64,000 nt of DNA from Chloroflexota bacterium (GTDB lineage Bacteria > Chloroflexota > Limnocylindria > Limnocylindrales > CSP1-4). The DNA is taken from NCBI GenBank assembly GCA_045804645.1, contig JBJMMR010000042.1:18184-82183 (forward strand), given 5' to 3'. The notes beneath the pieces were generated by a model, which was given only the letters and a program-made list of their open reading frames with translations, searched no databases and was not told the DNA's origin. A program made the translations under genes and the position numbers. Shown here piece after piece: positions 34,266-50,216 of this stretch (its first letter is position 1; each line of letters starts with the position of its first letter).

Positions 34266-35203
34266 CACGGAGCGGCGCCGGGACGCCGGACGGCGCCGTG
34301 ACAACGCCCGTACCACACGTCTCGTCTCGCGCCGACATCGACGCAGCGCTCAGCGCCCTGGTCGCGGCTCCGCCGCCACTCCTGCTCGTCATCGATTTCG
34401 ACGGCACGCTCGCGGTCGGGTCACGTGACCCTGCCCTCGCCCGCATCGAGCCGCTCGCCCAGCGCGCTCTGCGACGCCTCGCTGGCCATGCGACCCGACG
34501 GCCGGACCGCCTCGTCCTCGCGGTACTCACCGGACGCCTCGTCGCGGACGTGGCGACGCGGGTCCGGGTCGGTGGTATCGAATACCTGGGCGACCACGGT
34601 CTCGAGCACGGGCGCCTGCCGCGCGGTGGGCGTGCGGAACGGCTGGTCGTCACGACCGACCCCACGTTCGATGTCCACCGCGACACGGCGGAGACGCTCG
34701 CGACGGCCGTCGCCGCGCAGCTCGGCGCGCCACCCTGGCTGTTCGTCGAACGCAAGGGGCCGTCCGTGGCGTTCCACGTGCGCCAGGCCGAGGACATCCC
34801 GGCAGCGCGTGCCGCCGTCGTCGAAACGATCGACGCCGTCGAGCGGCGCCTCGGTCTCGGACATGGGCTCGCGCATTACCGGGGTCGGTCGGTCGTCGAT
34901 CTCCGTCCGAAGGACGCCGGTGGCAAGCGCGAGGCGGTCGAGGAGTTGGTCGCGCGTGACCGGCCTGGCGGCGTCGCGGTGCTCGGCGATGAGATGAGCG
35001 ATATCGACGCCTTCGAGGCCGTCCTCGCTGCACGGACGGCCGGCGAGATCGTCGGCGTGACCGTCGCGGTCCACGGGAGCCGATCTGCGCCGACGGAGCT
35101 GCTCGCGCTCGCCGATCTCCAGCTCCGTGGGGCACACGAGGTGGGTCGCTGGCTGGTCGGCCTCGCGCGGCGTCTCGAGGCAGAGGGGGCGCGAGGTCCC
35201 TAG
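34262..35203 (+). CDS. otsB: Trehalose-6-phosphate phosphatase (HAD-IIB)
   Basis: 313 aa, GTG start; HAD motif I LLLVIDFDGTL, motif II, …GDEMSDIDAF (motif IV DD); overall OtsB-like. Confidence 0.75.
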   Translation: MTRSGAGTPDGAVTTPVPHVSSRADIDAALSALVAAPPPLLLVIDFDGTLAVGSRDPALARIEPLAQRALRRLAGHATRRPDRLVLAVLTGRLVADVATRVRVGGIEYLGDHGLEHGRLPRGGRAERLVVTTDPTFDVHRDTAETLATAVAAQLGAPPWLFVERKGPSVAFHVRQAEDIPAARAAVVETIDAVERRLGLGHGLAHYRGRSVVDLRPKDAGGKREAVEELVARDRPGGVAVLGDEMSDIDAFEAVLAARTAGEIVGVTVAVHGSRSAPTELLALADLQLRGAHEVGRWLVGLARRLEAEGARGP

Positions 35204-38351: not shown

Positions 38352-40339
38352 CCCTGATTCCCCACGAGCAACAGGTACGAGCCCGCCATCACGATCAGCC
38401 CGATGGCGATCCCAAGTGCGTAGTTCTGGACGCGGCCGGTCTGGACGCGCCTGATGTTGCGGCCGGCGGTGACCGTCGAGCTGCCGATGCCATTCACCGT
38501 CCCGTCGATGACTTCGCGGTCGAACCACCACATCGCGTTCGCCAACCGGCCGCCGATGACGATGAACAGGAGGTGGTTGAGCTCGTCGAACCACCACTTG
38601 TTGAGGGAGGCCCGGTACAGGAACGACAGCCCCGGTCGCGCACTGATCTCGCGGACCGCCTCGGGTCGCGCTGGCAGGTGCAGGCCCGCGATGTCCGTCC
38701 CGAATAGCCGCCAGGCGATGACGACTCCGACCGCGGCGACCGCGACGCTCGCCCCGATCAGTGCACCGTCGATCCCGAACAGCTGGTACTCCGCCTCGGT
38801 GTGATGGAGCATCTCGACGGCCGGCTGGAAGACCGGCTCGAGCCACTGCGAGATGACGTTGGCGCCGAGCGGCAACCCGAGCGCGAGACCGAGCAGGGCG
38901 GATGGGATCGCGAGCAGGATGAGTGGCGTCGTCATCACGGGCGGCGACTCGTGGATCCTGTCCCAGAGCTCCTTCGGACCCCGGAACGAGCCCCAGAACG
39001 TCAGCCCCATCAACCGGAACATGTAGAACGCGGTGAGCAGGGCGACGAACAGGCCGATCGCCCAGATCCATGGGAATCCAAGCTTGAACGCTTCGCCGAG
39101 GATCTCATCCTTCGAGAAGAAACCGGCCAATGGCGGGATGCCAGAGATCGCGATCGAGCCGATGAGCATCGTGATGTAGGTGATCCCGATCTTCTTCGAG
39201 AGGCCACCCATCCGGCGCATGTCCTGCTCCTCATGGACGGCGTGGATCACCGAGCCCGAGCCGAGGAACAGCAGACCCTTGAAGAAGCCATGGGTCATGA
39301 GGTGGAAGATCGCCGCAGTGAACGCCCCGACGCCGAGCGCCGCGAACATGTAGCCGAGCTGCGACAGCGTCGAGTACGCGAGGACGCGCTTGATGTCGGT
39401 CTGGGTCATCGCGATCGATGCGGCGAGGATGGCCGTGAAGATGCCGATCGAGGCGACGACGACCATGGTCGACGGGGCGGAGGCGAACAGTGGATTCGCG
39501 CGGGCGACGAGGTACACGCCGGCGTTCACCATCGTGGCGGCATGGATCAGCGCCGAGACCGGGGTGGGGCCCTCCATCGCGTCGGGTAGCCAGACGTGCA
39601 GCGGGAACTGGGCACTCTTGCCCATCGCGCCGGCGAAGACGAGCAGGGCCACGATCGGGACGGGGATCGGGAACGCGACGAGCGTCGGCGACAACAGCGT
39701 GTCGAGGGACTGGCGGATGTCGAGCGTCCCGGTGTTCAGGAAGATCGCCATGATGCCGAGCGCGAACCCGACGTCACCCACGCGGTTGACGATGAACGCC
39801 TTCTTCGCCGCGAGGGCCGCCGAGCGCTTGCGATACCAGAAGCCGATCAGCAGGTAGCTCGACAGGCCGACGAGTTCCCACGCCACGAAGACGACGAGCC
39901 ACGAGTCCGCGAGGACCAGCAGCAGCATCGAGAACATGAACAGGTTGAGGTAGGCGAAGAACCGCCAGTATCCCGGGTCGTGACCCATGTACCCGATCGA
40001 GTAGATGTGGACCAGCAGGCCGATCGTCGTGACGACGATCAGGAGGCAGGCGGTCAGCGGGTCGACGAACAGCCCCAGGTTCACCTGGAAGCCGCCGGCT
40101 GGGATCCATGTCCACGGCCCGACCACGTAGCCGTGTAGCTCCTCGGAACCCTCGATGAGCGGCGCGGCCCCGGTCAGCACGTTGAAGACCGCGACCATCG
40201 CGATGACCCAGGCGATGAAGATGACCGCGACCGGTACCCAGTGCGCCTGCTTGCCGAGGCGTCGCCCGACGAGCGCCGTGAACAGGAATCCGGCTATCGG
40301 CAGGATCAGAAGGAGTGGCAGCAACGACGCCATGTCCAT
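38348..40339 (-). CDS. nuoL: NADH-quinone oxidoreductase subunit L
   Basis: 663 aa; …QFPLHVWLPDAMEGPTPVSALIHAATMV… and long C-terminal extension typical of NuoL. Confidence 0.9.
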   Translation of the reverse strand: MDMASLLPLLLILPIAGFLFTALVGRRLGKQAHWVPVAVIFIAWVIAMVAVFNVLTGAAPLIEGSEELHGYVVGPWTWIPAGGFQVNLGLFVDPLTACLLIVVTTIGLLVHIYSIGYMGHDPGYWRFFAYLNLFMFSMLLLVLADSWLVVFVAWELVGLSSYLLIGFWYRKRSAALAAKKAFIVNRVGDVGFALGIMAIFLNTGTLDIRQSLDTLLSPTLVAFPIPVPIVALLVFAGAMGKSAQFPLHVWLPDAMEGPTPVSALIHAATMVNAGVYLVARANPLFASAPSTMVVVASIGIFTAILAASIAMTQTDIKRVLAYSTLSQLGYMFAALGVGAFTAAIFHLMTHGFFKGLLFLGSGSVIHAVHEEQDMRRMGGLSKKIGITYITMLIGSIAISGIPPLAGFFSKDEILGEAFKLGFPWIWAIGLFVALLTAFYMFRLMGLTFWGSFRGPKELWDRIHESPPVMTTPLILLAIPSALLGLALGLPLGANVISQWLEPVFQPAVEMLHHTEAEYQLFGIDGALIGASVAVAAVGVVIAWRLFGTDIAGLHLPARPEAVREISARPGLSFLYRASLNKWWFDELNHLLFIVIGGRLANAMWWFDREVIDGTVNGIGSSTVTAGRNIRRVQTGRVQNYALGIAIGLIVMAGSYLLLVGNQG

Positions 40340-40342
40340 CGC

Positions 40343-40660
40343 CTACTGACGCATCGCGTCGTACTCATCCACAAGAGGCGTCTTCTTGTTGCGGTAGATG
40401 GCGATGACGATCGCGAGGCCGACGGTCGCCTCCGCTGCTGCGACAGCCATGACCATCAGCGCGAAGACGGAACCCTGCGCGACGGAATCAGCGCGCGGCC
40501 CGAACAGTCCGAACGCGACGATCGTGAGGTTGACGGCGTTGAGCATGAGCTCGATCGACATCAGCATGCTGATCGCGTTCCGGCGCGCCAGGAAGCCGAA
40601 CGAGCCGATGGCGAAGAGGATCCCCGACATGATCAGATACGTGTCGAGGCTGTCGCTCAC
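40343..40660 (-). CDS. nuoK: NADH-quinone oxidoreductase subunit K
   Basis: 105 aa, three TM; …[19 protein letters not shown]…[17 protein letters not shown]…. Confidence 0.9.
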
Positions 40661-41250
40661 GAGGGCCCGCCCGGTTCACGCTTCGCGAGGAAGACGCCCC
40701 CGATCACCGCGGCGAGCAGCAACACGCTCACGATCTCGAATGGGAACAGGAACTGCTGGAAGAGGATCCTCGACATGATCTCGGTGCCGAGGCGCGCCCC
40801 GCGCTCGACCTGACCCCAGTCGGTCGCGCTGACCGCGAGCGCGATCACGATCGCGACGACGATCGCGGCGATCGATGCAGGCCCGGCCTGGGTCTGGAAG
40901 ACCAGCCGCGTCGGCGCGTCCTTGGTCTGGGTGAGCATGATGGCGAACAGGATCAGCACGCTGATCGCGCCGATGTAGACGATGACCTGCGCGGCACCCA
41001 ACAACGGGACGCCCATCAGGACGTAGATCCCCGCGAGGGCCATGAAGCACACGACCATCGCCAGCCCGCAGCGGATGATGTCGCGCATCGTCACGACGAG
41101 CAGGCCCGAGCCGATCATCAGCGCGGCGAGCAGCCACAGCAGCACGTCGTCCCAGTCCTGGTGGAGGACGACGAGCATGAGGCCGGCGATCCCGAGGACG
41201 GCGCCCATGACGAGCAGCGCGAAGATGATCTGGGGGAGCTTCGCGAGCAC
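40657..41250 (-). CDS. nuoJ: NADH-quinone oxidoreductase subunit J
   Basis: 197 aa; …[22 protein letters not shown]… NuoJ pattern; overlaps nuoK start by 4 nt. Confidence 0.85.
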
Positions 41251-41252
41251 GA

Positions 41253-43892
41253 CTACTCGTGCTGACCCGGGCCGAGGGCGGCGACCGCCTCGTGCCCGTC
41301 ATGCCCGTGGCCGTTGCCGTTCGTGCGAGCGCTCGGAGCGATCCCTGTGAGCGTCGGGGGGAGGACCGGGAGCATCCGTGCCGGGTCATAGACGCGGCCC
41401 TCGATCTGCGCTCGCTCCAGCCAGTCGCGTTCGCGCCGGACGTACGTGACCTCGGTCTCCTTGTCGATCGCCGACAGCGCCATGAGGTCGATCATCGGCT
41501 CGGAGCGCCCGGTGTGGGAGAGCTCGAATTCGGTGCTGTCGCGGAGCGCGTCGTAGGGGCACGCGTCGACGCAGATCCCGCACAGGATGCAGCGGCTCTC
41601 GTCGACCTCGTACTTCTCGAGGACGCGCGGCTTCGGCATCAGGGCGCCGGTGGGACACGTCTCTGCACAGCGACCGCACGACACGCATGGGGTGTCGTTC
41701 AGGCTCATGTCGAGCGGCGTCGTCACGAGCGTGTCGAAGCCGATTCGCATGAAGTCGTAGCACGCCGCGCCGACGATCTCGGCGCAGACGTTGGCGCAGC
41801 GGCCGCAGTCGATGCAGCGCGATGGCTCGCGCAGGATGAACGCGTGCGAGTCGTCGCGGATGTAGTCGTGGTTGATGCCGGTGAACCGGTTCTCGGTGAT
41901 CGAGCGGTAGCCCGCGCCCTGGTGGTTGTCCGGCTCGAGCGTCTTGAGCGTCGTCCCGTACTCGATCCCCAGCCGGCGGAGGTCGCAGAAACCGATCGCC
42001 TCGCAGGTGCATTGGAGGCAGCGGGTCGACTCTGCCATCGCCTCCTCGCGGGTGTACGGCAGCTCGTACTCGATGTAGCTGTCGTTGCGCTGCTCGGCGG
42101 GGAGCGGCTTCAACCGGTAGCGCGGCTCCTTGATCTCGCCGGTGAACGGCACGATCGAGAGGAACTCGGGCTGCGGCTCGGCGAGGGTCTGACGCGTACG
42201 GATCGCGTCGAGGTCCATCCCCTTGAGGTAGGCATCGACCGCGTACGCCGCTCGGCGGCCCTCGGCGATCGCCTCGACGACGGTCGCGGCACCGATGCGC
42301 ACGTCGCCGCTGCCGAAGACACCCGCTCGGCCCGTGGAGAAGGTCACGGCGTCGGCCTTGAGCCGCCGGTTCTTGCTCGCCTCGACGCCCTCGTTACCCG
42401 GTTCGCTCGCCCAGCCGAGCTCGGGGCCCTGGCCGATCGCCAGGAGCACGCGGTCGCACGGGATCGTGAATTCCGTCCCGGGCGCTGGCTCCGGTCGGCG
42501 GCGACCTGATGCATCAGGCTCCCCGAGCTGCATCCGGATGAACTCGACGCCGGTCACGTTGCCGCCATCGTCGGTGATGACCCGCACCGGCCCGGCCTGG
42601 AAGATGGCGGTGACGCCTTCCTCGATCGCCTCGTGGACCTCGTCGGACGCCGGCATGTCCTTCATGTCCCGGCGGTAGACGAGCGTCACCTCGCTCGCGC
42701 CCTGACGGATGGACGTCCGCGAGCAGTCCATCGAGGTGAAGCCACCGCCGATGACGACGACCCGCTTGCCCGCGTGGTTCGGGTAGGGCAGGCCAAGGGT
42801 CGCGGTGCGCAGGTACTCGAGGCCGTCGAGCACCTCGGCCGCGTCCTCACCCGGGATCCCCAGCTTGTTCGTGTCGTAGCAGCCGATGGCGATGAGGACG
42901 GAGTCGAAGCCCTGGTTCGTCAGGTCGTCGAGCGTGAAATCACGCCCGAGTCCGGCGTCGGTGACGATCCGTGCCCCCAGCCGGGTGACCGACTCGTACT
43001 CGGCCTCGAGCACTTCCACCTTCGGGAGGCGGTATTGCGGGATGCCGTAGCGGAGCATGCCGCCGGGCGAGGGATCACGCTCGAAGACGGTGACCTCGTG
43101 ACCGGCGAGGAGCAGGTAGTACGCCGCCGCCATGCCGGCGGGCCCCGACCCGATGACGGCCGCACGCCGCCCCGACGTCGCCTGCTGCTCGAACGGGACC
43201 GGCGGATCGACATGCTCGTCGAGCATCGCGCGCAGGACCTGGTCGCCCGCGTAGCGGTGCGAGTCGCGGATCGCGATCGCCTCGTCGACCTCGTCGCGGC
43301 GGCAGTGCTCCTCGCACGGCGCCGGGCACACCCGCCCCAGCACGGACGGGAACGGGATCGTTCGCTTGAAGATCCGCGCGCTCTCGCGCCAGTTCGCCTC
43401 GGCGTTGGCCTTGAGGAAGCCAGGGATATCGATGTGACTCGGGCACTTGTTCTGGCAGGGCGGCAGGCAGTAGGCGTTGTGGTCCGAGAAGATCAGCTCG
43501 AGGTTGGTGCGCCGCAGCCGGCGGACCTCCTCGGTCTGCGTCTGGACCTTCATCCCGTCCTCGCACGAACGTGAGCACGAGATCGGCGGATGCTCCTCGC
43601 CCTCGACCTCGACGACGCACATCCGGCACGCGCCGAAACCCGGCAACTTCGGTTCGTAGCAGAGGGTCGGGATCTCGATCCCGTTGTCGCGACAGACCTC
43701 GAGGATCGTCTGGCCCTCGAAGCCCTCGACGACGCGACCGTCGACCTCGATGCGGATGCGCGGCGTCGACTGCGGTCGCTGCGGCGCCTGGGTATCGAGG
43801 AGCCGGTCGGCGAGGGCGTCACGCGTCGTCGCCGGGGTCGATGCCTCGGTCTCGGCGGCGCGCGGCTCGGGGCGTGCGAGGGTGTCGGTCAT
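41253..43892 (-). CDS. Composite Fe-S flavoprotein (879 aa): NuoG N-terminal [2Fe-2S]+[4Fe-4S] region with an inserted GltD-like FAD/NAD(P)H oxidoreductase domain, NuoG N4-cluster region, plus appended NuoI-like 2x[4Fe-4S] ferredoxin domain; no molybdopterin domain
   Basis: IRIEVDGRVVEGFEGQTILEVCRDNGIEIPTLCYEPKLPGFGACRMCVVEV… (NuoG N1b 2Fe-2S); LIFSDHNAYCLPPCQNKCPSH (His-ligated N5-type); VCPAPCEEHC + AAVIGSGPAGMAAAYYLLLAGHEVTVFERDPSPGGMLRYGIPQYRLPK + GKRVVVIGGGFTSMDC (glutamate-synthase small-subunit/GltD fold); NRFTGINHDY…CIDCGRCANVC (NuoG N4-like); CVSCGRCAETCP and CILCGICVDACP (NuoI/TYKY-like pair); His-rich tail. Confidence 0.7.
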   Translation of the reverse strand: MTDTLARPEPRAAETEASTPATTRDALADRLLDTQAPQRPQSTPRIRIEVDGRVVEGFEGQTILEVCRDNGIEIPTLCYEPKLPGFGACRMCVVEVEGEEHPPISCSRSCEDGMKVQTQTEEVRRLRRTNLELIFSDHNAYCLPPCQNKCPSHIDIPGFLKANAEANWRESARIFKRTIPFPSVLGRVCPAPCEEHCRRDEVDEAIAIRDSHRYAGDQVLRAMLDEHVDPPVPFEQQATSGRRAAVIGSGPAGMAAAYYLLLAGHEVTVFERDPSPGGMLRYGIPQYRLPKVEVLEAEYESVTRLGARIVTDAGLGRDFTLDDLTNQGFDSVLIAIGCYDTNKLGIPGEDAAEVLDGLEYLRTATLGLPYPNHAGKRVVVIGGGFTSMDCSRTSIRQGASEVTLVYRRDMKDMPASDEVHEAIEEGVTAIFQAGPVRVITDDGGNVTGVEFIRMQLGEPDASGRRRPEPAPGTEFTIPCDRVLLAIGQGPELGWASEPGNEGVEASKNRRLKADAVTFSTGRAGVFGSGDVRIGAATVVEAIAEGRRAAYAVDAYLKGMDLDAIRTRQTLAEPQPEFLSIVPFTGEIKEPRYRLKPLPAEQRNDSYIEYELPYTREEAMAESTRCLQCTCEAIGFCDLRRLGIEYGTTLKTLEPDNHQGAGYRSITENRFTGINHDYIRDDSHAFILREPSRCIDCGRCANVCAEIVGAACYDFMRIGFDTLVTTPLDMSLNDTPCVSCGRCAETCPTGALMPKPRVLEKYEVDESRCILCGICVDACPYDALRDSTEFELSHTGRSEPMIDLMALSAIDKETEVTYVRRERDWLERAQIEGRVYDPARMLPVLPPTLTGIAPSARTNGNGHGHDGHEAVAALGPGQHE

Positions 43893-45184
43893 CAGGATCC
43901 CGTGGCGGCGGCCGTGGTCGGCCGGCTATCAGGGTCGAAGGAGGAAGCGAAGTATCGCATCCCGCTGGTCAGCGGGAGGGTCGCAAGACGCTCGTGGTCG
44001 CATAGCGCGGAGGCGACGATGTCGTGTGCGAGATCCGTCGCGAGTCGCGCGTCCGCGGGCCGCAGGAGGCCGGCCTCGCGCCGCGCCACGATCTCGGCGA
44101 TGCGGCGCGTGCCGATCCGGCACGGGATCGACTTGCCGCACGCCTCGTTCGAGCAGAAGCGGGTGAGGACGCCGACGAGCTCGAGAAGATCGGTCCGATC
44201 ATCGACGACGACGATCGAGCCGGAACCGAGGTGGCCGCCGGCGTCGCGCAGCCCGTCGAAGTCGTACGGTGTCTCGAGGGCGTCGGGGGGCAGCAAGCCG
44301 CCCGACGGTCCGCCGACGAGCACCGCCTGCAGTGAGCGGCCCTCGGGCAGCCGGCCGCCGAGCTTGAGGACCTCGCGCAGTGGCGTCCCTAGCGGGACCT
44401 CCGCGACGCCGTCCTTGCCGGGGGTGCGCACCTGGACGAGGACCGTGCCAGGCGCCCGGGTGGAGCCCGTCGCGCGGAAGGCCTCGGAACCCTCGCGGAT
44501 GATCCACGGGACCGCGGCAAGGGTCTGGACGTTGTTGACGACAGTCGGCCGGTCGAAGAGACCGGTCTCCGCGGGGTGCGGCGGCCGCTGATCCGGCTGG
44601 CCGCGCTTCCCCTCGAGCGCTTTCAGCAGGACGGTCTCCTCGCCCAGCATGTAGGCACCCTGAACGGGCCGGACCGACATCGACAGTTCCATGCCGGACC
44701 CGAAGACGTCGTCACCGAGGTAGCCAGCGTCCATCGCGTTACCGATGGCGGCCGATAGCGTCGCGATGAGCTCGGTATCCTCGCCGCGCACGGCGATGAA
44801 CGATTCGCGTGCCCCGATCGCGCTGGCCGCGATGGCCGTGCCTTCCACCACCGCGTACGGATCGCGCATCATCAACGTCCGGTCGGTGTGCGACGCGGGA
44901 TCGGCGCCGTAGCCGTTCGCGACGACGTACCGCTGGTCGGCGTCTGTGCTCGCGGCCATGCGCCACTTGTCAGCCGTCGGGTAGCCCGCACCGCCACGGC
45001 CGCGCAGGCCGGATGCGGCGACCGCTGCGATCGTCCCGGCGCCCCCCAGCTCGCGGAAGGCCCGCTCGAGAGCGCTGAAGGCACCGTCGGCGACGGCAGC
45101 ATCGAGGTCCGTCGGGTCCTTGGCATCAGCGCGTGCAAGGAGGATGCGCGGCCACGCAGCCGGCGTCTTCAGGATCGTCACCAT
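43892..45184 (-). CDS. nuoF: NADH-quinone oxidoreductase subunit F (51-kDa, FMN/NADH-binding)
   Basis: 430 aa; GLRGRGGAGYPTADKW (NuoF FMN/NADH motif), …GYGADPASHTDRTLMMRDPY…, C-terminal 4Fe-4S N3 Cys motif …CGKSIPCRIGT…. Confidence 0.9.
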   Translation of the reverse strand: MVTILKTPAAWPRILLARADAKDPTDLDAAVADGAFSALERAFRELGGAGTIAAVAASGLRGRGGAGYPTADKWRMAASTDADQRYVVANGYGADPASHTDRTLMMRDPYAVVEGTAIAASAIGARESFIAVRGEDTELIATLSAAIGNAMDAGYLGDDVFGSGMELSMSVRPVQGAYMLGEETVLLKALEGKRGQPDQRPPHPAETGLFDRPTVVNNVQTLAAVPWIIREGSEAFRATGSTRAPGTVLVQVRTPGKDGVAEVPLGTPLREVLKLGGRLPEGRSLQAVLVGGPSGGLLPPDALETPYDFDGLRDAGGHLGSGSIVVVDDRTDLLELVGVLTRFCSNEACGKSIPCRIGTRRIAEIVARREAGLLRPADARLATDLAHDIVASALCDHERLATLPLTSGMRYFASSFDPDSRPTTAAATGS

Positions 45185-45185
45185 G

Positions 45186-45863
45186 TCAGGCCTGCGCGGA
45201 GGCGCCGGCGCGACGGCCTCCCTCGAGGGCGGTGCCGAGTGCGGCGAGGTATGCGGTCTCGGCCGGGCGGTGACGATCGACGGCGGCGACCTGGTCGGTC
45301 GCTGTCGGCGGCTCGAAACGAAGATGACCGTAGTAGCTCGCGGTCCCGTAGATGATCGCGTACCAGGCGCCGGTCCGGTGACTGATGCGCTTCAGCGCTG
45401 CGACCGGGAGGTAGCCATACGCGTCTTGCGTGGCTTCCAGGATCGGCAGCATGTCGGCGGGATCGAAGTCGTGCTCCTCGAGGATCCGGTCGACCTCGCC
45501 CAGGTCGATCGGCTCGTACGGCCGGAACGCGGGGTCCGGCACGGTGCGCCCTGACCGCCGCACCGCGGACTCTTCGCGCCGCTCACCGTAGGTCTCCGGT
45601 GGGCCCCAGTGGACGTGATAGCGGCCGCGCGTGTCGATGCCACCCATGTCGATGCATTCGATCGGGCACGCCTGGGCGCACTGGAAGCACGTCTCGCACT
45701 TGAGCGTGCCCCACTCGTCGTACAACAGCTGGAGTCGGCCGCGGAACTTGCCGGCGACGTCGGCTCGCTGTTCGGGGTACTTGATGGTCGCCTTCGGCTC
45801 GAAGAAGCGTCGAAGCGTAAGGGCCATGCCCTTCGCGATGCCGAGGCCAGGGACGAAGCTCAT
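45186..45863 (-). CDS. Fusion protein: degenerate NuoI (single CxxCxxCxxxCP motif) + NuoE N-terminal helical domain lacking the [2Fe-2S] thioredoxin-like part
   Basis: N-terminal 1-90 aligns to NuoI up to the first cluster motif CETCFQCAQACP, with no second motif in any frame. Residues ~125-190 (DLGEVDRILEEHDFDPADMLPILEATQDAYGYLPVAALKRISHRTGAWYAIIYGTASYYGHLRFEPP) align to the NuoE N-terminal domain. No Cys in the C-terminal 130 aa. Flanked tightly by nuoH and nuoF. Confidence 0.65.
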   Translation of the reverse strand: MSFVPGLGIAKGMALTLRRFFEPKATIKYPEQRADVAGKFRGRLQLLYDEWGTLKCETCFQCAQACPIECIDMGGIDTRGRYHVHWGPPETYGERREESAVRRSGRTVPDPAFRPYEPIDLGEVDRILEEHDFDPADMLPILEATQDAYGYLPVAALKRISHRTGAWYAIIYGTASYYGHLRFEPPTATDQVAAVDRHRPAETAYLAALGTALEGGRRAGASAQA

Positions 45864-45867
45864 CCGA

Positions 45868-47214
45868 TCACCGGCCGATCACGACGATCGCGGCCGCGGT
45901 CACGAACAGATTCAACAGCGACGCCGGTAGGAGCCATTTCCAGGCGAAGCCCATCAGCTGGTCGATCCGCACGCGCGGCAGCGTGCCGCGCATCCACACG
46001 AACGTGAACACGAGGACGTACGTCTTGAGCATGAACCAGAGGATACCGGCGACCCAGTTCAGCCCGATGTACGCCCATGCGAGCGCGATCGTGACGATGA
46101 ACAGGTTGGCCAGCGCGAAGCCGATCAGGAGCGCCTGCCACCACTTGATGCGCGAGCTCAGCAGCCAGAAGGGCGCGGCGAACAACAGCGTCAGGACCAC
46201 CGGAGCCAGCCCGATGATGAACAGCAGTCCGATGTTGAACGAGGCCGGGTCGAGGCTCAGCTGGACCTGCCAGGCTTCCGGGAACGCGAACGGGGCGTTC
46301 CAGCCGCCGAGGAAGAGCGTCACGAACAACGCCGATACGATGAAGACGTTCACGTACTCGGCGAAGAAGAAGAAGCCGAACCGCATCCCGGAGTACTCCG
46401 TCGCGAACCCGGCCACGATCTCGGAGTCCGCCTCCGTCAGGTCGAAGGGCGTGCGGTTCGCTTCGGCGGTCGCCGCGATGAAGAAGATCAGCGCGCCGAG
46501 CGGCTGTTGGAAGATGTACCAGTCGGTGAACCAGCCCTGCTGGTTCTCGACGATCTGATTGAGGCTCATCGTCCCGGCGAGCAAAAGCAGTCCGACGACG
46601 GACAGCGTGAGCGGGATCTCGTAGCTCACGATCTGAGCGGCGGCGCGCAGCCCGCCGAGCAACGAGTACTTGTTGTAGCTCGACCAGCCGGCCATCAGGA
46701 GCCCGACCACACCGAGCCCGCTGACCGCGAAGAAGTAGAGCAGCCCGATGTTGAGGTCGGCGCCGTAGAGGCCCGGCGCGAACGGGATGACGAGCAGCGT
46801 CATCACGCTGGCGAGATAGACGACGACGGGCGCCCACGTGAAGACCACAGAGTCGGCGCCGGTCGGCGTGAAGTCCTCCTTCATGAGGACCTTCAGTCCG
46901 TGGACCACGGACAGCAGCGACCCGAACGGCCCGACGCGGTCCGGCCCGATCCGAAGATTCATCAGGGCGATGATCTTCATCTCCATGTAGATGATCAGGA
47001 ATGCGGTCGGGACCGTGATCAGCAGGATGACCGTGGCGGCCACCACGAACCGGACGATCGGCAGGTTCGCAGCGAGGGTGTCGATCGCGAGCTGCCCGAA
47101 CGCCGTGATCAGGATGATCAGCGCTGCGATCCCGACGACCAGCAGCGGCACGAGGATGAACAGGAACTTCCCGGGCAGGGTCAGCCGGTTCCAGCCGCGC
47201 GAGACGACCGTCAT
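45868..47214 (-). CDS. nuoH: NADH-quinone oxidoreductase subunit H
   Basis: 448 aa; …GWSSYNKYSLLGGLRAAAQIVSYEIPL… and …RTPFDLTEADSEIVAGFATEYSG… NuoH signatures; N-terminal ~50-aa extension relative to typical NuoH. Confidence 0.9.
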   Translation of the reverse strand: MTVVSRGWNRLTLPGKFLFILVPLLVVGIAALIILITAFGQLAIDTLAANLPIVRFVVAATVILLITVPTAFLIIYMEMKIIALMNLRIGPDRVGPFGSLLSVVHGLKVLMKEDFTPTGADSVVFTWAPVVVYLASVMTLLVIPFAPGLYGADLNIGLLYFFAVSGLGVVGLLMAGWSSYNKYSLLGGLRAAAQIVSYEIPLTLSVVGLLLLAGTMSLNQIVENQQGWFTDWYIFQQPLGALIFFIAATAEANRTPFDLTEADSEIVAGFATEYSGMRFGFFFFAEYVNVFIVSALFVTLFLGGWNAPFAFPEAWQVQLSLDPASFNIGLLFIIGLAPVVLTLLFAAPFWLLSSRIKWWQALLIGFALANLFIVTIALAWAYIGLNWVAGILWFMLKTYVLVFTFVWMRGTLPRVRIDQLMGFAWKWLLPASLLNLFVTAAAIVVIGR

Positions 47215-47245
47215 CGCGAACGACCTCGCGCACTGCGCCTATGGG

Positions 47246-48520
47246 TCACTTATCTACCCCGCCCATGATCGGATCGAGCGAGGCCATGATTGCCATGGTG
47301 TCGGCGACGAGATGCCCCGGCATCATCAGCCCGACCGACTCCAGATGCAGGAACGACGGGTCGTGGATCCGCATCCGGAACGGCTGGTCCGTTCCGTCAC
47401 TGATCGCGTAGACCGCGTACTGCCCTCGTGGCGCCTCGATGCCCGCGTAGGCGCGACCCGGACGCGGCCGAAGCAGCCGCGGCAGCTTCGCCATCACCGG
47501 GCCGTCGGGCATCTGGTGCAGGCACTGGTCGATGATGCGCAGGCTCTGCTTGATCTCGTCCATCCGCAGGAGGTAACGGGCGAGGCAGTCACCCTCCTGG
47601 CGCGTCGGGATGTCGAAATCGAGCTCCGGGTAGATGCTGTAGGGGTGTGCGCGACGCATGTCGAACGGCACCCCGGTCGCCCGGAGGTTCGGTCCGCTCA
47701 TCGTCATCCGTAGCGCCGTCTTCGAGTCGATCCTGCCAAGACCGCGCATCCGGCGGACGAAGATCTCGTTCTCGTTGAGCAGCGTGTTGCCGGCCTCGAT
47801 CTGCTCGGTCGCGTGGCTCATCCAGTCGCCGAGGCGGCTCATGAACTCGTGGTTCAGATCGCCGTTCACCCCGCCGATGCGGAAGTAGTTGAAGAGCATC
47901 CGCTGGCCGGTGAGCGAGGCGAGCATCTCGACGATCGTGTCGCGCTCGATGAACGACCACAGGATCGGCGTGAGACCCCCGAGGTCGAGGGCCATCCAGC
48001 CGAGGAACAGCGAATGGCTCGCGATCCGGTTCAGCTCCGCGGAGAGCACCCGGATGTATTCAGCGCGTCGCGGGACCTGGACGTCGAGCAGCTTCTCGAA
48101 CGCCATGACGCCGGGCCACTCGCAGAACAGTGCGCTGACGTACTCGAGCGGGTCGAGATAGGCGATCGAGTGGTGGTAGTCGGCGTTCTCGCAGAGCTTC
48201 TCGACGCCGCGATGCAGATACCCCAGCACGGGGTCCAGGTCGACGACCTTCTCACCGTCGAGCTTGAGGACGACGCGGAGCACGCCGTGCGTCGACGGGT
48301 GTTGCGGACCCATGTTGAGGAACATCTCGCCGTCTCGCAGCGTGTAGAACTCCGCCTCGCGCTCGGTTCGCGGCGGATACGGAGGCACCGGTTCGAACAC
48401 GCCCAGCTCGCGGTCGAGCTGGACGCGGGGGTCGTCGGGCGCGCCCGCGAAGGCGTCGTCGCCCAGGCTGCTCGTGCGCTGACTACCGGCGGCGTCGGGG
48501 CGGGGAGTGGTAGCGGTCAT
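47246..48520 (-). CDS. nuoD: NADH-quinone oxidoreductase subunit D (49-kDa)
   Basis: Start trimmed to MTATTPRPDAAG… (track ORF 5' extension overlaps nuoC); …LNMGPQHPSTHGVLRVVLKLDGE…ASLDPIMGGVDK. Confidence 0.9.
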   Translation of the reverse strand: MTATTPRPDAAGSQRTSSLGDDAFAGAPDDPRVQLDRELGVFEPVPPYPPRTEREAEFYTLRDGEMFLNMGPQHPSTHGVLRVVLKLDGEKVVDLDPVLGYLHRGVEKLCENADYHHSIAYLDPLEYVSALFCEWPGVMAFEKLLDVQVPRRAEYIRVLSAELNRIASHSLFLGWMALDLGGLTPILWSFIERDTIVEMLASLTGQRMLFNYFRIGGVNGDLNHEFMSRLGDWMSHATEQIEAGNTLLNENEIFVRRMRGLGRIDSKTALRMTMSGPNLRATGVPFDMRRAHPYSIYPELDFDIPTRQEGDCLARYLLRMDEIKQSLRIIDQCLHQMPDGPVMAKLPRLLRPRPGRAYAGIEAPRGQYAVYAISDGTDQPFRMRIHDPSFLHLESVGLMMPGHLVADTMAIMASLDPIMGGVDK

Positions 48521-48539
48521 CGGCGTTCCTTCGGCCGGC

Positions 48540-49094
48540 TCACGTACCGGGACTGATCCGGCGGACCTTGCCGGTCGCGACGGTCTCACGTGGCGCGTGG
48601 GTCTGCTCCATGTGGCGGACGCCCGCACCCGGGGACCGGGCGGCGTCGTCGGCGAGGTAGAAGTCCTTGCGGAGCGGGAAGCTCTGATAGTCCGGCGGCA
48701 TGTAGATGCGCCGCAGGTCTCGGTTGCCTTCGAACGTGATCCCGAACATGTCGTAGGCTTCGCGCTCCATCCACTCGGCGCCCTTCCACATGAAGGTGAC
48801 CGACGGGACACGCGGGTCCTCGCGGGACAGGCCGTCGACGATGACGCGCAGCCAGTCCGGTGTCGTCGGGCTCCAGAGGTGGTACACGACCTGCATCACC
48901 TCGCCCGTATCGACGCCGCATAGATCGGCGAGGAACTCGAACGCGAACTCGGGTTCGTCGTGGAGCGCCGTGATCACCGGGACGACGTCACCGGCGCTGA
49001 TGCGCACCTCGGTCTCGTCATGGCGCTGCCGGACCGGGCCGGTCAGCTGGTCGCCGAAGCGCCGCTCGAGGCGGGCCTTGAACGATCGGTCCAT
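48540..49094 (-). CDS. nuoC: NADH-quinone oxidoreductase subunit C (30-kDa)
   Basis: 184 aa; …EREAYDMFGITFEGNRDLRRIYMPPDYQSFPLRKDF… NuoC signature. Confidence 0.9.
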   Translation of the reverse strand: MDRSFKARLERRFGDQLTGPVRQRHDETEVRISAGDVVPVITALHDEPEFAFEFLADLCGVDTGEVMQVVYHLWSPTTPDWLRVIVDGLSREDPRVPSVTFMWKGAEWMEREAYDMFGITFEGNRDLRRIYMPPDYQSFPLRKDFYLADDAARSPGAGVRHMEQTHAPRETVATGKVRRISPGT

Positions 49095-49095
49095 G

Positions 49096-49860
49096 TCAGA
49101 TCTGCGCGGGGACCGTCGGGCCGATCGGTCGCTCCGGCCAATGGCCGCGGCGATCCTTGACCAGCTGCTGGAGCTTCATCATCCCGAAGATGAGCCCCTC
49201 GGGACGGGGCGGGCAGCCGGGCACGTAGACATCGACCGGCATCACGCGGTCGATCCCCTCGACCGTGGAGTAGCTCCGCTTGTAGCGGCCGCCCGAGCAC
49301 GTGCAATCGCCCATCGCGACGCACCACTTCGGCTCCGGCATCTGCTCCCAGAGGCGGACGAGGGGTCCTGCCATCTTCGTCGTGAGCGTCCCCGCGACGA
49401 TTAGGACGTCGGCCTGGCGCGGGCTGGCGCGGAACGGGAACATGCCCCAGCGATCCATGTCGTTGCGGGACGTCGCGGCCGACATCATCTCGATCGCACA
49501 GCACGCGAGGCCCGACAGTAGCGGCCACAGGCTGTTCATACGGATGAGGTCGAGGACGTAGTCCGCCTTGGTCGGGATGACCTCGAGCGGACCGCTCCAG
49601 CGGGCGTTGTCGCGGCGCCCCGCACCGCTCGCCTCGAACTCGGCGAGGTGGGTGATGGTCGTGGGCTGACCACCCTCATAGGCCATCGGATCCACCGATC
49701 GCCAGAGCGTATTCGGGACGACGATCGGCGCCATGACCTCGTCGCCCGGTCGCGTCGCCGGCAAAGCCGGCTGCGCCGGCACATCGGACGGTATCTCGGT
49801 GGCGTCCGACGGTCCCGCTCCCAACCCGTCGGGGTTGGCGCGGTCCTCATTCACCGCCAT
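49096..49860 (-). CDS. nuoB: NADH-quinone oxidoreductase subunit B (20-kDa, N2 cluster)
   Basis: …[16 protein letters not shown]…[12 protein letters not shown]…[11 protein letters not shown] (four Cys of N2); start assigned to MAVNED (10-nt overlap with nuoA), alternative MAPIVVPN at ~49734; the 294-aa ORF start is an artefactual extension. Confidence 0.85.
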
Positions 49861-50216
49861 GTCAGGGCTCCCTTCCGCCACGCATACGCGAGGCCGAGCA
49901 ACAGGATCAGGACGAACACGACCATGCTGATGAACAGCCCGGCCGGGTTCAGATTGGGGTCTTTGAACACGATGGCCCACAGGTAGATGAAGATCACCTC
50001 GATGTCGAACGCGACGAAGAGCAGCGCGTAGATATAGAAGGACAGGCCGAATCGCCCATGGGTGTCGCCGTAGGTGTCGATACCGGACTCGTAGGGCAGG
50101 CCCTTGTGGACGTCACCCTTGTTCCGATGGGAGACGAGCCAGGCCGCCCCGATCGTAAGGAACACGAACGACACGCCGGCGAAGGCGAAGCCCACGACGT
50201 ACCAGAGCTGTTCCAA
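49851..50216 (-). CDS. nuoA: NADH-quinone oxidoreductase subunit A
   Basis: 121 aa, three TM; …[40 protein letters not shown]… NuoA signature; first gene of operon. Confidence 0.9.

What the first reader, a model, noticed from the sequence alone, without database searches (positions are those of the whole stretch)
45186..45863. NuoI reduced to a single-cluster half and fused to a cysteine-less NuoE N-terminal domain
At the nuoI/nuoE position there is one 225-aa protein.
- Residues 1-90 align to NuoI through the first CxxCxxCxxxCP motif (CETCFQCAQACP). The second motif, which supplies the cross-ligating Cys in every NuoI, is absent in all three frames.
- Residues ~125-190 align to the alpha-helical N-terminal domain of NuoE (LPILEATQDAYGYLPVAALKRI…ASYYGHLRFEPP). 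The thioredoxin-like [2Fe-2S] (N1a) part is missing: there are no Cys residues downstream.
- nuoF starts 2 nt after its stop, so no space is left for the missing parts.

Together with the appended NuoI-like module on the 879-aa protein, this suggests a domain-swapped N-module: NuoI function moved to the G' protein, and N1a lost.
Basis: partly seen in the sequence, partly recalled or inferred. Interest (0 to 1): 0.8.

Follow-up and report, generated by a model that had tools for sequence, protein, structure and literature searches.

The report
Complex I subunit NuoI split in two
In this Chloroflexota (Limnocylindria) respiratory complex I operon, the gene for the iron-sulfur subunit NuoI is split in two by a three-gene NAD(P)H-oxidising cassette of the Nfn/Stn type, and each NuoI half is fused to one end of that cassette, which looks like an independent and so far undescribed way of attaching an electron-input module to complex I.

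Summary
The ORF at 45186-45863 (-) encodes a 225-aa protein. It carries the NuoI N-terminal half with one CxxCxxCxxxCP motif, followed by the four-helix N-domain of a NuoE-like subunit. It has no [2Fe-2S] domain.

It is not a frameshift. The protein is full-length in more than 100 protein clusters and at least 515 species genomes, all Chloroflexota/Limnocylindria MAGs. The gene order nuoD-H-[this]-F-G'-J-K is conserved.

The interpretation needs correcting. NuoI has not moved to the 879-aa protein; it is split. The 879-aa protein carries only the complementary C-terminal NuoI half. Joined in silico, the two halves align end to end with NuoI profiles and with solved NuoI chains, and all eight Cys line up.

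The three genes between the halves are closest to the electron-bifurcating NfnABC/StnABC transhydrogenases, including the GltD-type FAD/NADPH domain. They lack every element needed for bifurcation. Distant relatives have the same split but a complete NuoE, so loss of N1a came later.

Most likely mechanism, inferred: the halves form a two-cluster ferredoxin domain shared between two proteins, which both wires and anchors an NADH+NADPH input module. I found no prior description.

The parts
45594..45863 (-). NuoI N-terminal half (residues 1-90 of the 225-aa protein): conserved N-terminal segment GLGIAKGMALTLRRFFEPKATIKYPE plus the first cluster motif
   Evidence: NF004536 positions 13-87/180 (E 1.2e-13) and TIGR01971 positions 1-63/121. 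Aligns to NuoI/TYKY PDB chains. Translation checked.
45663..45698 (-). The only CxxCxxCxxxCP motif of the 225-aa protein (C56, C59, C62, C66, P67)
   Evidence: Invariant in 9 sequences down to 24% identity. Exactly one copy in 80/80 loci.
45516..45593 (-). Linker, residues 91-116 (TYGERREESAVRRSGRTVPDPAFRPY); no homology found
   Evidence: Low-confidence region of the AlphaFold model. Partly conserved among close relatives (A3).
45300..45515 (-). NuoE/NfnC/StnA-type N-terminal four-helix domain (residues 117-188), with no [2Fe-2S] thioredoxin-like domain after it
   Evidence: PF01257 positions 2-63/145 at 32.9 bits. PDB 9bov_C E 2.3e-10, 8oh5_A and 9n5u_C. pLDDT 64-95 and rmsd 1.0-1.3 A to NfnC/StnA.
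45186..45299 (-). Cys-free C-terminal tail (residues 189-225) plus stop codon. It occupies the place of the lost thioredoxin-like domain.
   Evidence: Relatives P0125/P0158 keep the domain with degenerate Cys; P0250/P0256/P0266 keep it with four Cys.
43892..45184 (-). NuoF/NfnB-core flavoprotein (430 aa): FMN/NADH site plus an N3-type cluster with an unusual ligand pattern. It lacks the N- and C-terminal Fe-S domains of bifurcating homologues.
   Evidence: PF01512 and PF10589. Aligns to residues 104-509 of the 584-aa 9bov_B. N3 motif shown.
41253..43892 (-). 879-aa NfnA/StnC-like subunit (G'): [2Fe-2S] domain, inserted GltD-type FAD/NADPH domain, CxxCxCx5C cluster, 2x[4Fe-4S] domain, then the NuoI C-terminal half in place of the FdhF-like domain
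   Evidence: Residues 45-779 align to 9bov_A 4-700 (E 1.3e-162) and to StnC 8oh5_C 3-700 (E 9e-144). Pfam and NCBIfam hits.
42219..43469 (-). GltD/NfnB-type domain of G' (residues 142-558), with an FAD GxGxxG motif, a second Rossmann motif and LVYRR
   Evidence: Pyr_redox_2 and Fer4_20. Motifs conserved in 56-58 of 59 loci.
41652..41816 (-). HydA/NuoG/StnC-type 2x[4Fe-4S] domain of G' (motifs at residues 693 and 736, 32 residues between them)
   Evidence: Collinear alignment with 9bov_A and the HydA-type chain 7p5h_A.
41448..41630 (-). NuoI C-terminal half fused to G' (residues 755-815), including the lone third motif CILCGICVDACP (41556-41591) and the NuoI-type 'TEFELS' segment
   Evidence: TIGR01971 positions 71-117/121 at 53.5 bits. 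NuoI/TYKY PDB chains E 4e-11 to 1e-9. Three motifs in 55/59 complete G' copies. Present in distant loci L082, L084, L086, L090 and L091.
45868..47214 (-). nuoH, immediately upstream. In the standard nuo operon nuoI lies between nuoH and nuoJ.
   Evidence: PF00146, E 6e-107.
40657..41250 (-). nuoJ, immediately downstream of G'
   Evidence: PF00499.
35200..50216 (-). The whole operon: nuoA-B-C-D-H-[I(N)-E']-F-[G'-I(C)]-J-K-L-M-N
   Evidence: Pfam hits for A, B, C, D, H, J, L, M and N and for K. ORF map.

Best explanation
What is shown.
- The 225-aa protein is a real, conserved subunit of an unusual complex I.
- A three-gene cassette of the NfnABC/StnABC (Bfu) type lies inside what would be nuoI. 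Its gene order is small E-like, then F-like flavoprotein, then large G-like/GltD subunit.
- The 5' half of nuoI is fused in frame to the front of the E-like gene. This half encodes the conserved N-terminal segment, which in solved complex I lies against NuoH (textbook knowledge), and the first CxxCxxCxxxCP motif.
- The 3' half of nuoI is fused in frame to the end of the G-like gene. This half encodes the second motif and the FELS segment. It replaces the FdhF-like domain found in StnC.

Inferred mechanism.
- In the assembled enzyme the two halves pack into one NuoI-like 2x[4Fe-4S] ferredoxin domain.
- In this fold each cluster takes three Cys from one motif and the fourth from the other. Both clusters (the N6a/N6b equivalents) would therefore be ligated across two polypeptides.
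- This shared domain would do two jobs. It would connect the cassette's Fe-S chain to N2 in NuoB and on to quinone. It would also clamp the foreign module onto the 11-subunit core at both of its ends.

What has been lost.
- The E-like [2Fe-2S] domain and the extra Fe-S domains of the F-like subunit are needed for flavin-based bifurcation and ferredoxin binding in Nfn/Stn/Hyd enzymes.
- The F-like extras are absent here, and the E-like domain was lost secondarily in this lineage.
- The module is therefore probably a plain, non-bifurcating input module.

Inferred function.
- The module has two nucleotide sites: FMN/NADH on F and FAD/NADPH on the GltD domain of G'.
- The enzyme would then be a proton-pumping NAD(P)H:quinone oxidoreductase.
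For: Complementary halves.
- The 225-aa protein covers TIGR01971 positions 1-63 (50.1 bits). The G' tail covers positions 71-117 (53.5 bits).
- Joined, they give one stretch over positions 1-117/121 at 97.7 bits.
- The joined sequence gives one continuous alignment to solved NuoI chains: 7ar7_I 23-146 (E 9e-21), 8e9g_I 8-129 and 2fug_9 6-124. In the printed alignment to 7ar7_I all eight Cys line up, and the spacing between motifs is only 6 residues longer.

Motif counting.
- G' has three motifs and the 225-aa protein has one.
- Motifs 1 and 2 of G' align collinearly with the 2x[4Fe-4S] domain of the HydA-type chain 7p5h_A and of 9bov_A.
- That leaves one unpaired motif in each protein.

Conservation.
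- One motif in 80/80 copies of this protein. Three motifs in 55/59 complete G' copies.
- Cys invariant down to 24% identity.
- At least 515 species genomes. Synteny D-H-IE-F-G'-J-K is kept.
- The same split occurs in distant loci L082, L084, L090 and L091.
- It also occurs in L086, where GltD is fused to F instead and a 265-aa G still ends in the NuoI half.

Origin of the cassette.
- Best PDB matches of all three proteins are NfnABC (9bov, 9n5u) and StnABC (8oh5).
- F scores 301-312 bits against Bfu-type B subunits. Against complex I NuoF it scores 274.5 bits (best) and 228-239 bits for T. thermophilus and E. coli.

Non-bifurcating.
- F aligns only to the core 104-509 of 9bov_B, and E' lacks the [2Fe-2S] domain.
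- The StnA [2Fe-2S] cluster is essential for bifurcation (PMC10482914). [quoted passage not shown]

Other points.
- FAD, second Rossmann and YRR motifs of G', and the FMN-loop and GEET motifs of F, are conserved.
- All other complex I core genes are present and tightly packed.
- No other nuoI-, nuoE-, nuoF- or nuoG-like sequence lies in the 64-kb window.
Against: - No structure of the assembled halves could be computed.
- The joined sequence stays below the curated NuoI cut-off (97.7 against 113.05 bits).
- Whole genomes could not be scanned, so a separate canonical nuoI or nuoE elsewhere is not excluded.
- Some related loci lack adjacent membrane-arm genes: L082 and L084 stop after G', L090 has only nuoB and nuoD nearby, and L073 lacks nuoH upstream.
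- The N3 cluster motif of F is non-canonical here (Ser at the second Cys position). It varies among relatives, so the NADH/FMN entry may be impaired.
- Substrate use, proton pumping and expression are untested.
Confidence: 0.72

Rival explanations
1. Alternative pairing. Motifs 2 and 3 of G' (20 residues apart) form a complete clostridial or polyferredoxin-like 2x[4Fe-4S] domain. The lone motif of the 225-aa protein then pairs with motif 1 of G' instead of motif 3.
For: The stretch CVSCGRCAETCP-x20-CILCGICVDACP aligns with repeats of the polyferredoxins MvhB and FwdF (E 1e-23 to 2e-21). The spacing is typical of consecutive ferredoxin motifs.
Against: Motifs 1 and 2, with their 32-residue spacer, align collinearly with the 2x[4Fe-4S] domain of HydA-type (7p5h_A) and NfnA (9bov_A) chains. 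Motif 3 and the about 45 residues after it match NuoI-specific profile positions 71-117 and NuoI PDB chains. Joining the 225-aa N-half to motif 3 restores near-native NuoI spacing. This rival still needs a dicluster domain shared between two proteins.
Confidence: 0.1
2. First reader's reading. The whole NuoI function has moved to the 879-aa protein, and the half in the 225-aa protein binds one cluster at most or is a relic.
For: G' ends with a NuoI-like motif.
Against: G' holds only the C-terminal NuoI half (profile positions 71-117), not a whole NuoI. The four Cys and the Pro of the 225-aa protein are invariant across relatives down to 24% identity and in 80/80 loci. A CxxCxxCxxxCP motif alone gives three ligands to one cluster and one to its neighbour (textbook ferredoxin chemistry).
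Confidence: 0.05
3. The E'-F-G' proteins form a soluble Nfn/Stn-like NADPH/NADH oxidoreductase that is merely encoded inside the nuo operon. The NuoI halves are vestigial, and the complex I core is fed by another partner or uses a canonical NuoI encoded elsewhere.
For: Related loci exist without adjacent membrane subunits (L073, L090) or without nuoJ-N downstream (L082, L084). Whole genomes were not scanned.
Against: The operon has no other nuoI, and the halves sit exactly between nuoH and nuoJ with spacers of 1-4 nt or an overlap. The conserved N-terminal NuoI segment is retained. All eight Cys are under strong conservation. No second nuoI or nuoE lies in 64 kb. The FdhF-like domain that mediates StnC tetramerisation (PMC10482914) is gone.
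Confidence: 0.08
4. Sequencing or assembly artefact, or a pseudogene: a frameshifted nuoI or nuoE.
For: None beyond the unusual architecture.
Against: Full-length 223-229-aa homologues occur in more than 100 clusters at 81-99% identity from JGI, ENA, NCBI and Logan assemblies. At least 515 species genomes, including long-read MAG contigs over 2 Mb, carry it. No second motif in any frame. Gene junctions are tight.
Confidence: 0.01

Closest known systems
NuoI / Nqo9 / TYKY (NDUFS8), the 2x[4Fe-4S] subunit of complex I (clusters N6a/N6b)
   Same: It has the conserved N-terminal segment (TxxYPE), both CxxCxxCxxxCP motifs and the post-motif FE(L/F)(S/A) segment. It sits between nuoH and nuoJ. The joined halves align along the full length of solved NuoI chains.
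   Different: It is encoded as two halves on two polypeptides, separated by about 4 kb and three reading frames, and each half is fused to another subunit. Neither half nor the joined sequence reaches the curated family cut-off.
NuoE / Nqo2 / 24-kDa subunit, and its Bfu counterparts NfnC, StnA and HydC
   Same: It has the N-terminal four-helix domain. That domain is 35-39% identical to NfnC/StnA and superposes at rmsd 1.0-1.3 A.
   Different: The thioredoxin-like [2Fe-2S] (N1a/A1) domain is deleted in this lineage. Distant relatives with the same fusion keep it.
NfnABC / StnABC (Nfn-Bfu) electron-bifurcating transhydrogenases (PDB 8OH5, 9BOV, 9N5U; PMC10482914, PMC12018979)
   Same: They share the three-gene order and the large subunit made of a NuoG-like [2Fe-2S] domain with an inserted GltD FAD/NADPH domain and a 2x[4Fe-4S] domain. 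They are the best PDB matches for all three proteins.
   Different: The module here is embedded in a nuo operon. It has no [2Fe-2S] on the small subunit, no N- or C-terminal Fe-S domains on the flavoprotein, and no FdhF-like domain on the large subunit (replaced by half of NuoI). The bifurcating apparatus and the ferredoxin site are therefore missing.
Predicted 'Nuo-Bfu' complex I of Deferribacteres, Proteobacteria, Planctomycetes and Nitrospirae (Schut et al. 2022, PMC9304861)
   Same: A Bfu-type module is encoded in the middle of a nuo operon and is proposed to feed a proton-pumping complex I.
   Different: As described, Nuo-Bfu is a 14-subunit Nuo (A-N) with a complete BfuABC module. The passages I read mention neither a GltD domain nor a split NuoI. 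The phyla differ.
Other alternative input modules of 11-subunit complex I (FpoF in Fpo; ferredoxin-binding subunits of cyanobacterial NDH-1) (PMC3144371, PMC4758237)
   Same: They follow the same principle: a conserved 11-subunit core with a lineage-specific electron-input module docked near NuoI.
   Different: Those modules dock non-covalently to an intact NuoI. Here the docking is through NuoI itself, split and fused.
Inter-subunit [4Fe-4S] clusters (nitrogenase Fe protein, photosystem I Fx); from my own knowledge, not tested here
   Same: In these proteins, too, Cys ligands of one cluster come from two polypeptides.
   Different: Those are single clusters at dimer interfaces. Here a whole two-cluster ferredoxin fold would be shared between two different multidomain proteins.

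Membership tests
NuoI (TIGR01971 / NF004536-46) | Conserved N-terminal segment preceding the first cluster motif | tested here: met
   Residues 9-82 match NF004536 positions 13-87 (E 1.2e-13). Aligned to TYKY chains.
NuoI (TIGR01971 / NF004536-46) | Two CxxCxxCxxxCP motifs in one polypeptide (eight Cys for N6a and N6b) | tested here: not met
   One motif only, and none in the other frames. The second motif is on the 879-aa protein at residue 768.
NuoI (TIGR01971 / NF004536-46) | Whole-protein score at or above the curated cut-off | tested here: not met
   48.2-50.7 bits for the protein against cut-offs of 113.05 (TIGR01971) and 212 (NF004536). The joined halves reach 97.7 bits on TIGR01971.
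NuoI (TIGR01971 / NF004536-46) | Gene located between nuoH and nuoJ | tested here: met
   The N-half follows nuoH by 4 nt. The C-half ends 2 nt before nuoJ.
NuoE (PF01257 / TIGR01958) | N-terminal helical domain | tested here: met
   PF01257 positions 2-63 at 32.9 bits, above the 24.8 gathering score. The model superposes on NfnC/StnA/NuoE.
NuoE (PF01257 / TIGR01958) | Thioredoxin-like domain with four Cys binding [2Fe-2S] N1a | tested here: not met
   No Cys after residue 70. The profile match stops at position 63/145.
NuoE (PF01257 / TIGR01958) | Curated equivalog cut-off | tested here: not met
   TIGR01958 gives 14.6 bits against a cut-off of 142.4.
Bfu family (NfnABC / StnABC / HydABC) | Large subunit with a NuoG-like N-terminus and, for Nfn/Stn, an inserted GltD FAD/NADPH domain | tested here: met
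   G' residues 45-779 align to 9bov_A 4-700 (E 1.3e-162) and to 8oh5_C 3-700 (E 9e-144).
Bfu family (NfnABC / StnABC / HydABC) | BfuB flavoprotein with extra N-terminal [2Fe-2S] and C-terminal 2x[4Fe-4S] domains | tested here: not met
   F is 430 aa and aligns only to residues 104-509 of the 584-aa 9bov_B. It has four Cys in all.
Bfu family (NfnABC / StnABC / HydABC) | BfuC [2Fe-2S] cluster forming the bifurcating site with FMN | tested here: not met
   The domain is absent. Its requirement is taken from PMC10482914 and PMC12018979.
Bfu family (NfnABC / StnABC / HydABC) | Electron-bifurcating activity with ferredoxin | not testable with these tools
   This needs enzyme assays.
Respiratory complex I (Nuo), 11-subunit core | Genes for A, B, C, D, H, I, J, K, L, M and N in one cluster | tested here: met
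   Pfam hits for A, B, C, D, H, J, L, M and N and for K. I is present as two halves.
Respiratory complex I (Nuo), 11-subunit core | Assembly of the split NuoI with NuoB/C/D/H, and quinone reduction coupled to proton pumping | not testable with these tools
   This needs a multimer model, cryo-EM or biochemistry.

The most novel reading that the evidence does not exclude
Limnocylindria and related Chloroflexota carry a complex I whose NAD(P)H-input module was acquired independently of canonical NuoEFG. An Nfn/Stn-type cassette was inserted into nuoI. The module is held and wired through a two-cluster ferredoxin domain shared between two different subunits, a natural heterodimeric 'half-ferredoxin' pair. 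The enzyme pumps protons using NADPH, through the GltD/FAD site, as well as or instead of NADH.
Probability: 0.35. Interest if true: 0.88.

Novelty: new variant of a known kind. Interest (0 to 1): 0.78.

Why it matters
As far as I know, NuoI (TYKY) is a single polypeptide in every complex I described so far. A natural version split into halves that must share both clusters across two proteins would be a new way of building the electron wire.

It would also show that an 11-subunit core can capture a foreign dehydrogenase by fusing it to the two halves of a core subunit. That would be a second, independent solution to the question of how complex I got its N-module.

The module carries a GltD-type NADPH site. 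If it is active, this would be a proton-pumping complex I fed directly by NADPH. That would change how the energy and redox budgets of Limnocylindria are modelled. This class is represented here by at least 515 species genomes, all uncultured MAGs.

The series of relatives (full NuoE, then degenerate Cys, then domain deleted) records the step-by-step dismantling of a bifurcating module into a simple input module.

There is a practical consequence too. Annotation pipelines name this protein 'ferredoxin' or 'NAD(P)H-dependent oxidoreductase subunit E'. Subunit-counting surveys would probably score these genomes as lacking NuoI, because neither half reaches the family cut-off.

Tried and rejected
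- Frameshift or artefact: rejected on conservation and on the six-frame motif scan.
- Hidden second nuoI, nuoE, nuoF or nuoG in the window: tblastn with the joined NuoI, two full-length NuoE-type fusions, F and G' found only the known genes.
- AlphaFold of the joined halves as a single sequence: useless (pLDDT 33). The structural test of the split fold could therefore not be run.
- The model of the 225-aa protein alone is confident only for the NuoE-like domain. The half-ferredoxin is at pLDDT 33-39. That fits a fold which is incomplete alone, but the alignment had only 9 sequences, so it is not evidence.
- A search of the 5.8-billion-protein collection with the joined NuoI, meant to fish out canonical NuoI from the same taxa, returned only the fusion proteins in the listed top 120. 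It was uninformative.
- The first attempt at a locus search with the 9-sequence alignment failed for lack of a conserved stretch. It succeeded with 4 sequences, which biases the 80 loci towards close relatives.
- The search with the 265-aa L086 protein showed that this architecture is rare: 2 clusters.
- Seven literature searches gave no description of a split NuoI or of this operon, nor did nine papers I read: 10.1101/2025.03.13.643058, PMC4758237, 10.1101/2021.02.01.429150, PMC5736913, PMC10482914, PMC9304861, PMC4453560, PMC3144371 and PMC12018979. The library lacks most subscription-journal papers, so prior description is not excluded.
Full report
**1. What is at the coordinates**

The minus strand of the window carries a tightly packed nuo operon:
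- nuoA 49851-50216
- nuoB, within ORF 49096-49980
- nuoC 48540-49094
- nuoD, within ORF 47246-48811
- nuoH 45868-47214
- the 225-aa ORF 45186-45863
- a 430-aa NuoF-like gene 43892-45184
- an 879-aa gene 41253-43892
- nuoJ 40657-41250
- nuoK 40343-40660
- nuoL 38348-40339
- nuoM, about 36696-38351
- nuoN 35200-36696

The junctions around the finding are 4 nt (H to 225-aa gene), 1 nt (225-aa gene to F, TGAcATG), a 1-nt overlap (F to 879-aa gene, TGATG) and 2 nt (879-aa gene to J).

The 225-aa protein has Cys only at positions 56, 59, 62, 66 and 70, with one motif CETCFQCAQACP. No second motif exists in any of the six frames of 45100-45950.

Residues 9-82 match NuoI models: NF004536 positions 13-87/180 (E 1.2e-13) and TIGR01971 positions 1-63/121. 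They also match solved TYKY/NuoI chains. Residues 125-186 match the first 63 of 145 positions of Pfam 2Fe-2S_thioredx at 32.9 bits, above the gathering score of 24.8. The best PDB matches of this part are the small subunits of NfnABC (9bov_C, 9n5u_C) and StnABC (8oh5_A).

An AlphaFold model built on a 9-sequence alignment is confident only for residues ~111-188. These form four helices that superpose on NfnC/StnA/NuoE N-domains at rmsd 1.0-1.3 A.

The one small exception is that the spacer before nuoF is 1 nt, not 2.

**2. It is not an artefact**

A search of 5.8 billion proteins returned more than 100 clusters of 223-229 aa at 81-99% identity and full coverage. Sources name them 'ferredoxin' or 'NAD(P)H-dependent oxidoreductase subunit E', and some are assigned to Candidatus Limnocylindrales.

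The 80 loci kept are nearly all labelled Chloroflexota, Chloroflexia or Limnocylindria MAGs. Two are labelled Patescibacteria, probably mislabelled bins. Several lie on contigs over 2 Mb.

In these 80 loci the order nuoD-nuoH-[this gene]-F-G'-nuoJ-nuoK is kept wherever the contig extends far enough. Every copy has exactly one CxxCxxCxxxCP, and 75 of 79 complete copies have a single further Cys.

**3. Where the other half of NuoI is**

The 879-aa protein (G') has three CxxCxxCxxxC motifs, at residues 693, 736 and 768.

Motifs 1 and 2 are separated by 32 residues. They align collinearly with the 2x[4Fe-4S] domain of the HydA-type chain 7p5h_A and of the NfnA chain 9bov_A.

The third motif, CILCGICVDACP, and the segment YDALRDSTEFELS... 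after it match the C-terminal half of NuoI. The match covers TIGR01971 positions 71-117/121 at 53.5 bits, and NuoI/TYKY chains at E 4e-11 to 1e-9.

The two proteins therefore cover complementary, non-overlapping parts of the NuoI profile: positions 1-63 and 71-117.

I joined residues 1-88 of the 225-aa protein to residues 755-879 of G'. The product matched TIGR01971 in a single stretch over positions 1-117/121 at 97.7 bits, close to the sum of the halves (50.1 + 53.5). It aligned continuously with solved NuoI chains: A. thaliana 7ar7_I 23-146 of 169 (E 9e-21), M. smegmatis 8e9g_I 8-129 and T. thermophilus 2fug_9 6-124. In the printed alignment to 7ar7_I all eight Cys are in register, and the loop between motifs is only six residues longer.

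Counting gives the same answer. G' has an odd number of motifs (three) and the 225-aa protein has one. In a 2x[4Fe-4S] ferredoxin fold each cluster takes three Cys from one motif and the fourth from the other (established ferredoxin chemistry). The lone motif in each protein can therefore only be completed by the other protein.

Fifty-five of 59 complete G' copies have exactly three motifs. The exceptions are interrupted or paralogous copies.

**4. What lies between the halves**

All three intervening products are closest to the Bfu-type transhydrogenases, not to canonical NuoEFG.

- G' residues 45-779 align with the large subunit of Caldicellulosiruptor NfnABC (9bov_A 4-700, E 1.3e-162) and with Sporomusa StnC (8oh5_C 3-700, E 9e-144). 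The alignment includes the GltD-type FAD/NADPH domain inserted after the [2Fe-2S] domain.
- StnC continues with a catalytically inactive FdhF-like domain at residues 683-1172 (PMC10482914). In G' that domain is replaced by the NuoI half.
- F scores 301-312 bits against NfnB, HydB and StnB. Against complex I NuoF it scores 274.5 bits at best and 228-239 bits for T. thermophilus and E. coli. It aligns only to the core of the Bfu chains (residues 104-509 of the 584-aa 9bov_B) and so lacks their N-terminal [2Fe-2S] and C-terminal 2x[4Fe-4S] domains.
- The gene order (small subunit, flavoprotein, large subunit) is that of stnABC in the subunit naming of PMC10482914.

In Stn and Nfn-Bfu, bifurcation requires the [2Fe-2S] cluster of the small subunit. 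[quoted passage not shown] Those elements are all missing here.

The FAD GxGxxG motif, the second Rossmann motif and LVYRR of G' are conserved across the loci, as are the FMN-loop (GRGGAG[FY]P) and GEET motifs of F.

**5. Deep relatives give the order of events**

An all-against-one HMMER search of 1.84 billion cluster representatives found fusion proteins down to 24-33% identity. In an alignment of nine of them, C56, C59, C62, C66 and P67 are invariant. The NuoE part varies:
- P0250, P0256 and P0266 keep a full thioredoxin-like domain with the four [2Fe-2S] Cys.
- P0125 and P0158 keep the domain with degenerate Cys.
- The window protein, P0121, P0237 and P0244 have lost it.

Their loci show the same split.
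- L082 (a Chloroflexi MAG, 54% GC) and L084 carry nuoA-B-C-D-H-[fusion]-F-G', with G' ending in a lone third motif plus xFEL.
- L091 carries D-H-[fusion with degenerate domain]-F-G'-J.
- L086 (49% GC) has a different cassette layout. A HydB-like F is fused to GltD (1048 aa), and it is followed by a 265-aa NuoG-N-like protein. That 265-aa protein also ends in the lone NuoI motif and is followed by nuoJ-K-L-M-N.

The NuoI split is therefore older than the N1a loss, and it does not depend on where GltD sits.

**6. Mechanism**

Shown:
- the gene architecture
- the complementarity and conservation of the halves
- the Nfn/Stn affinity of the cassette
- the absence of the bifurcation elements
- a complete set of other complex I genes

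Inferred:
- The halves assemble into an N6a/N6b-type domain with both clusters ligated across the two proteins.
- That domain links the Fe-S chain of G' to N2 and clamps the module to the core at both ends. The E-like helical domain would hold F, as NuoE does in canonical enzymes.
- Electrons enter at FMN (NADH) and/or at the GltD FAD (NADPH) and leave to quinone without bifurcation.

The NADPH part is the weakest step. It rests only on conserved motifs and on the known NADPH:acceptor activity of StnC (PMC10482914).

One caveat concerns the N3 motif of F. Here it reads F-C-SNEA-C-GK-S-IP-C. The second canonical Cys position is Ser or Thr, and an extra Cys lies five residues before the first canonical Cys, in 69 of 70 loci. 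The motif varies further in relatives. The FMN entry may therefore be altered.

**7. Rivals**

- Alternative pairing of the motifs (G' 2+3, and G' 1 with the 225-aa protein). The polyferredoxin-like spacing suggests it. The collinear HydA-type/NfnA alignment, the NuoI-specific tail and the restored NuoI spacing argue against it. It would still need a domain shared between the two proteins.
- A soluble enzyme with vestigial halves, or a canonical nuoI encoded elsewhere. Neither can be excluded without whole genomes. Loci L073, L082, L084 and L090 show contexts without adjacent membrane genes. Against this stand the operon position, the tight junctions, the retained N-terminal NuoI segment, the invariant Cys and the absence of any second copy in 64 kb.
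- Artefact: excluded.

**8. Comparison with what is known**

The system works like a complex I with an alternative input module. Schut et al. predicted a 'Nuo-Bfu' complex I in other phyla, described as a 14-subunit Nuo (A-N) with a complete BfuABC module (PMC9304861). Surveys of complex I operon diversity list fused CD and BCD forms, 11-subunit forms and split operons, but no split NuoI (PMC4758237, PMC4453560, PMC3144371, 10.1101/2025.03.13.643058).

The 225-aa protein fails the defining tests of both NuoI (two motifs, cut-off score) and NuoE ([2Fe-2S] domain, cut-off score). The module fails the defining features of bifurcating Bfu enzymes. I therefore file it as a new variant of a known kind, complex I with an alternative N-module. 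The specific novelty is the split and fused NuoI.

Seven searches of the full-text library held here found no description of it. That library lacks most subscription-journal papers.

**9. Verdict**

The finding is real, conserved across a large uncultured bacterial class, and structurally unusual for one of the best-studied respiratory enzymes. Interest 0.78. Confidence in the split-NuoI explanation is about 0.7. Confidence in NADPH-driven function is about 0.35.

Noticed in passing
window 44117-44158 (-), NuoF residues 343-356: The N3 [4Fe-4S] motif of NuoF is non-canonical: F-C344-SNEA-C349-GK-S352-IP-C355-R. Ser or Thr replaces the second canonical Cys, and an extra Cys lies five residues upstream of the first, in 69/70 Limnocylindria loci. 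Deep relatives differ: canonical in L082 and L090, third Cys replaced by Gly in L084, Thr without the extra Cys in L091, Ala in L092.
   Followed up: partly
window 45868-47214 (-), nuoH: NuoH is 448 aa. Compared with L081, L082, L084 and L086 it has an N-terminal extension of about 50 aa with an extra hydrophobic helix. It also has an insertion of about 80 aa, with two hydrophobic stretches, before the last transmembrane block. L091 shares both features.
   Followed up: partly
L073:5046-9981: L073 comes from the same MAG as L034, which has the normal H-IE-F-G' order. In L073 a second copy of the fusion gene (75% identical) plus F is preceded not by nuoH but by an 856-aa GltD + 2xFer4 protein. 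It is either a paralogous, possibly soluble, version or a binning or assembly mix.
   Followed up: partly
L090:3216-10321: A Limnocylindria MAG (GCA_036518215.1) has nuoB-nuoD-[fusion]-F-G'-Methyltransf_28, with no nuoA, C, H or J-N adjacent. G' still ends in the lone NuoI motif.
   Followed up: partly
L086:359-11571: L086 (49% GC, taxon unknown) has an alternative architecture. The order is nuoH, then the fusion with a full NuoE, then a 1048-aa HydB-like F fused to GltD, then a 265-aa NuoG-N-like protein ending in the NuoI C-half, then nuoJ-K-L-M-N. Only two clusters of this 265-aa type were found in 5.8 billion proteins.
   Followed up: yes
window 50582-51772 (-): A Methyltransf_28 gene, similar to the NDUFAF7 complex I assembly methyltransferase, lies directly upstream of nuoA. 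The same family follows G' in L090.
   Followed up: no
window 49096-49980 and 47246-48811 (-): The longest ORFs for nuoB (294 aa, Pfam match from residue 160) and nuoD (521 aa, Pfam match from residue 276) have long N-terminal stretches outside the family profile. The true starts are probably downstream, or these are real extensions. This was not resolved.
   Followed up: no
L082:14330-17865 and L084 downstream of G': In the two distant loci L082 and L084 the operon stops after G', with no nuoJ-N. In L082 it is followed by a flavin reductase, a small ferredoxin and 2-oxoacid:ferredoxin oxidoreductase genes.
   Followed up: no
window 41253-41447 (-), G' residues 816-879: After the NuoI half, G' continues with a conserved segment (TEVTYIRRERDW..RA..EGR) and a Gly/Asn/His-rich C-terminus. 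Neither has a counterpart in NuoI or StnC.
   Followed up: no
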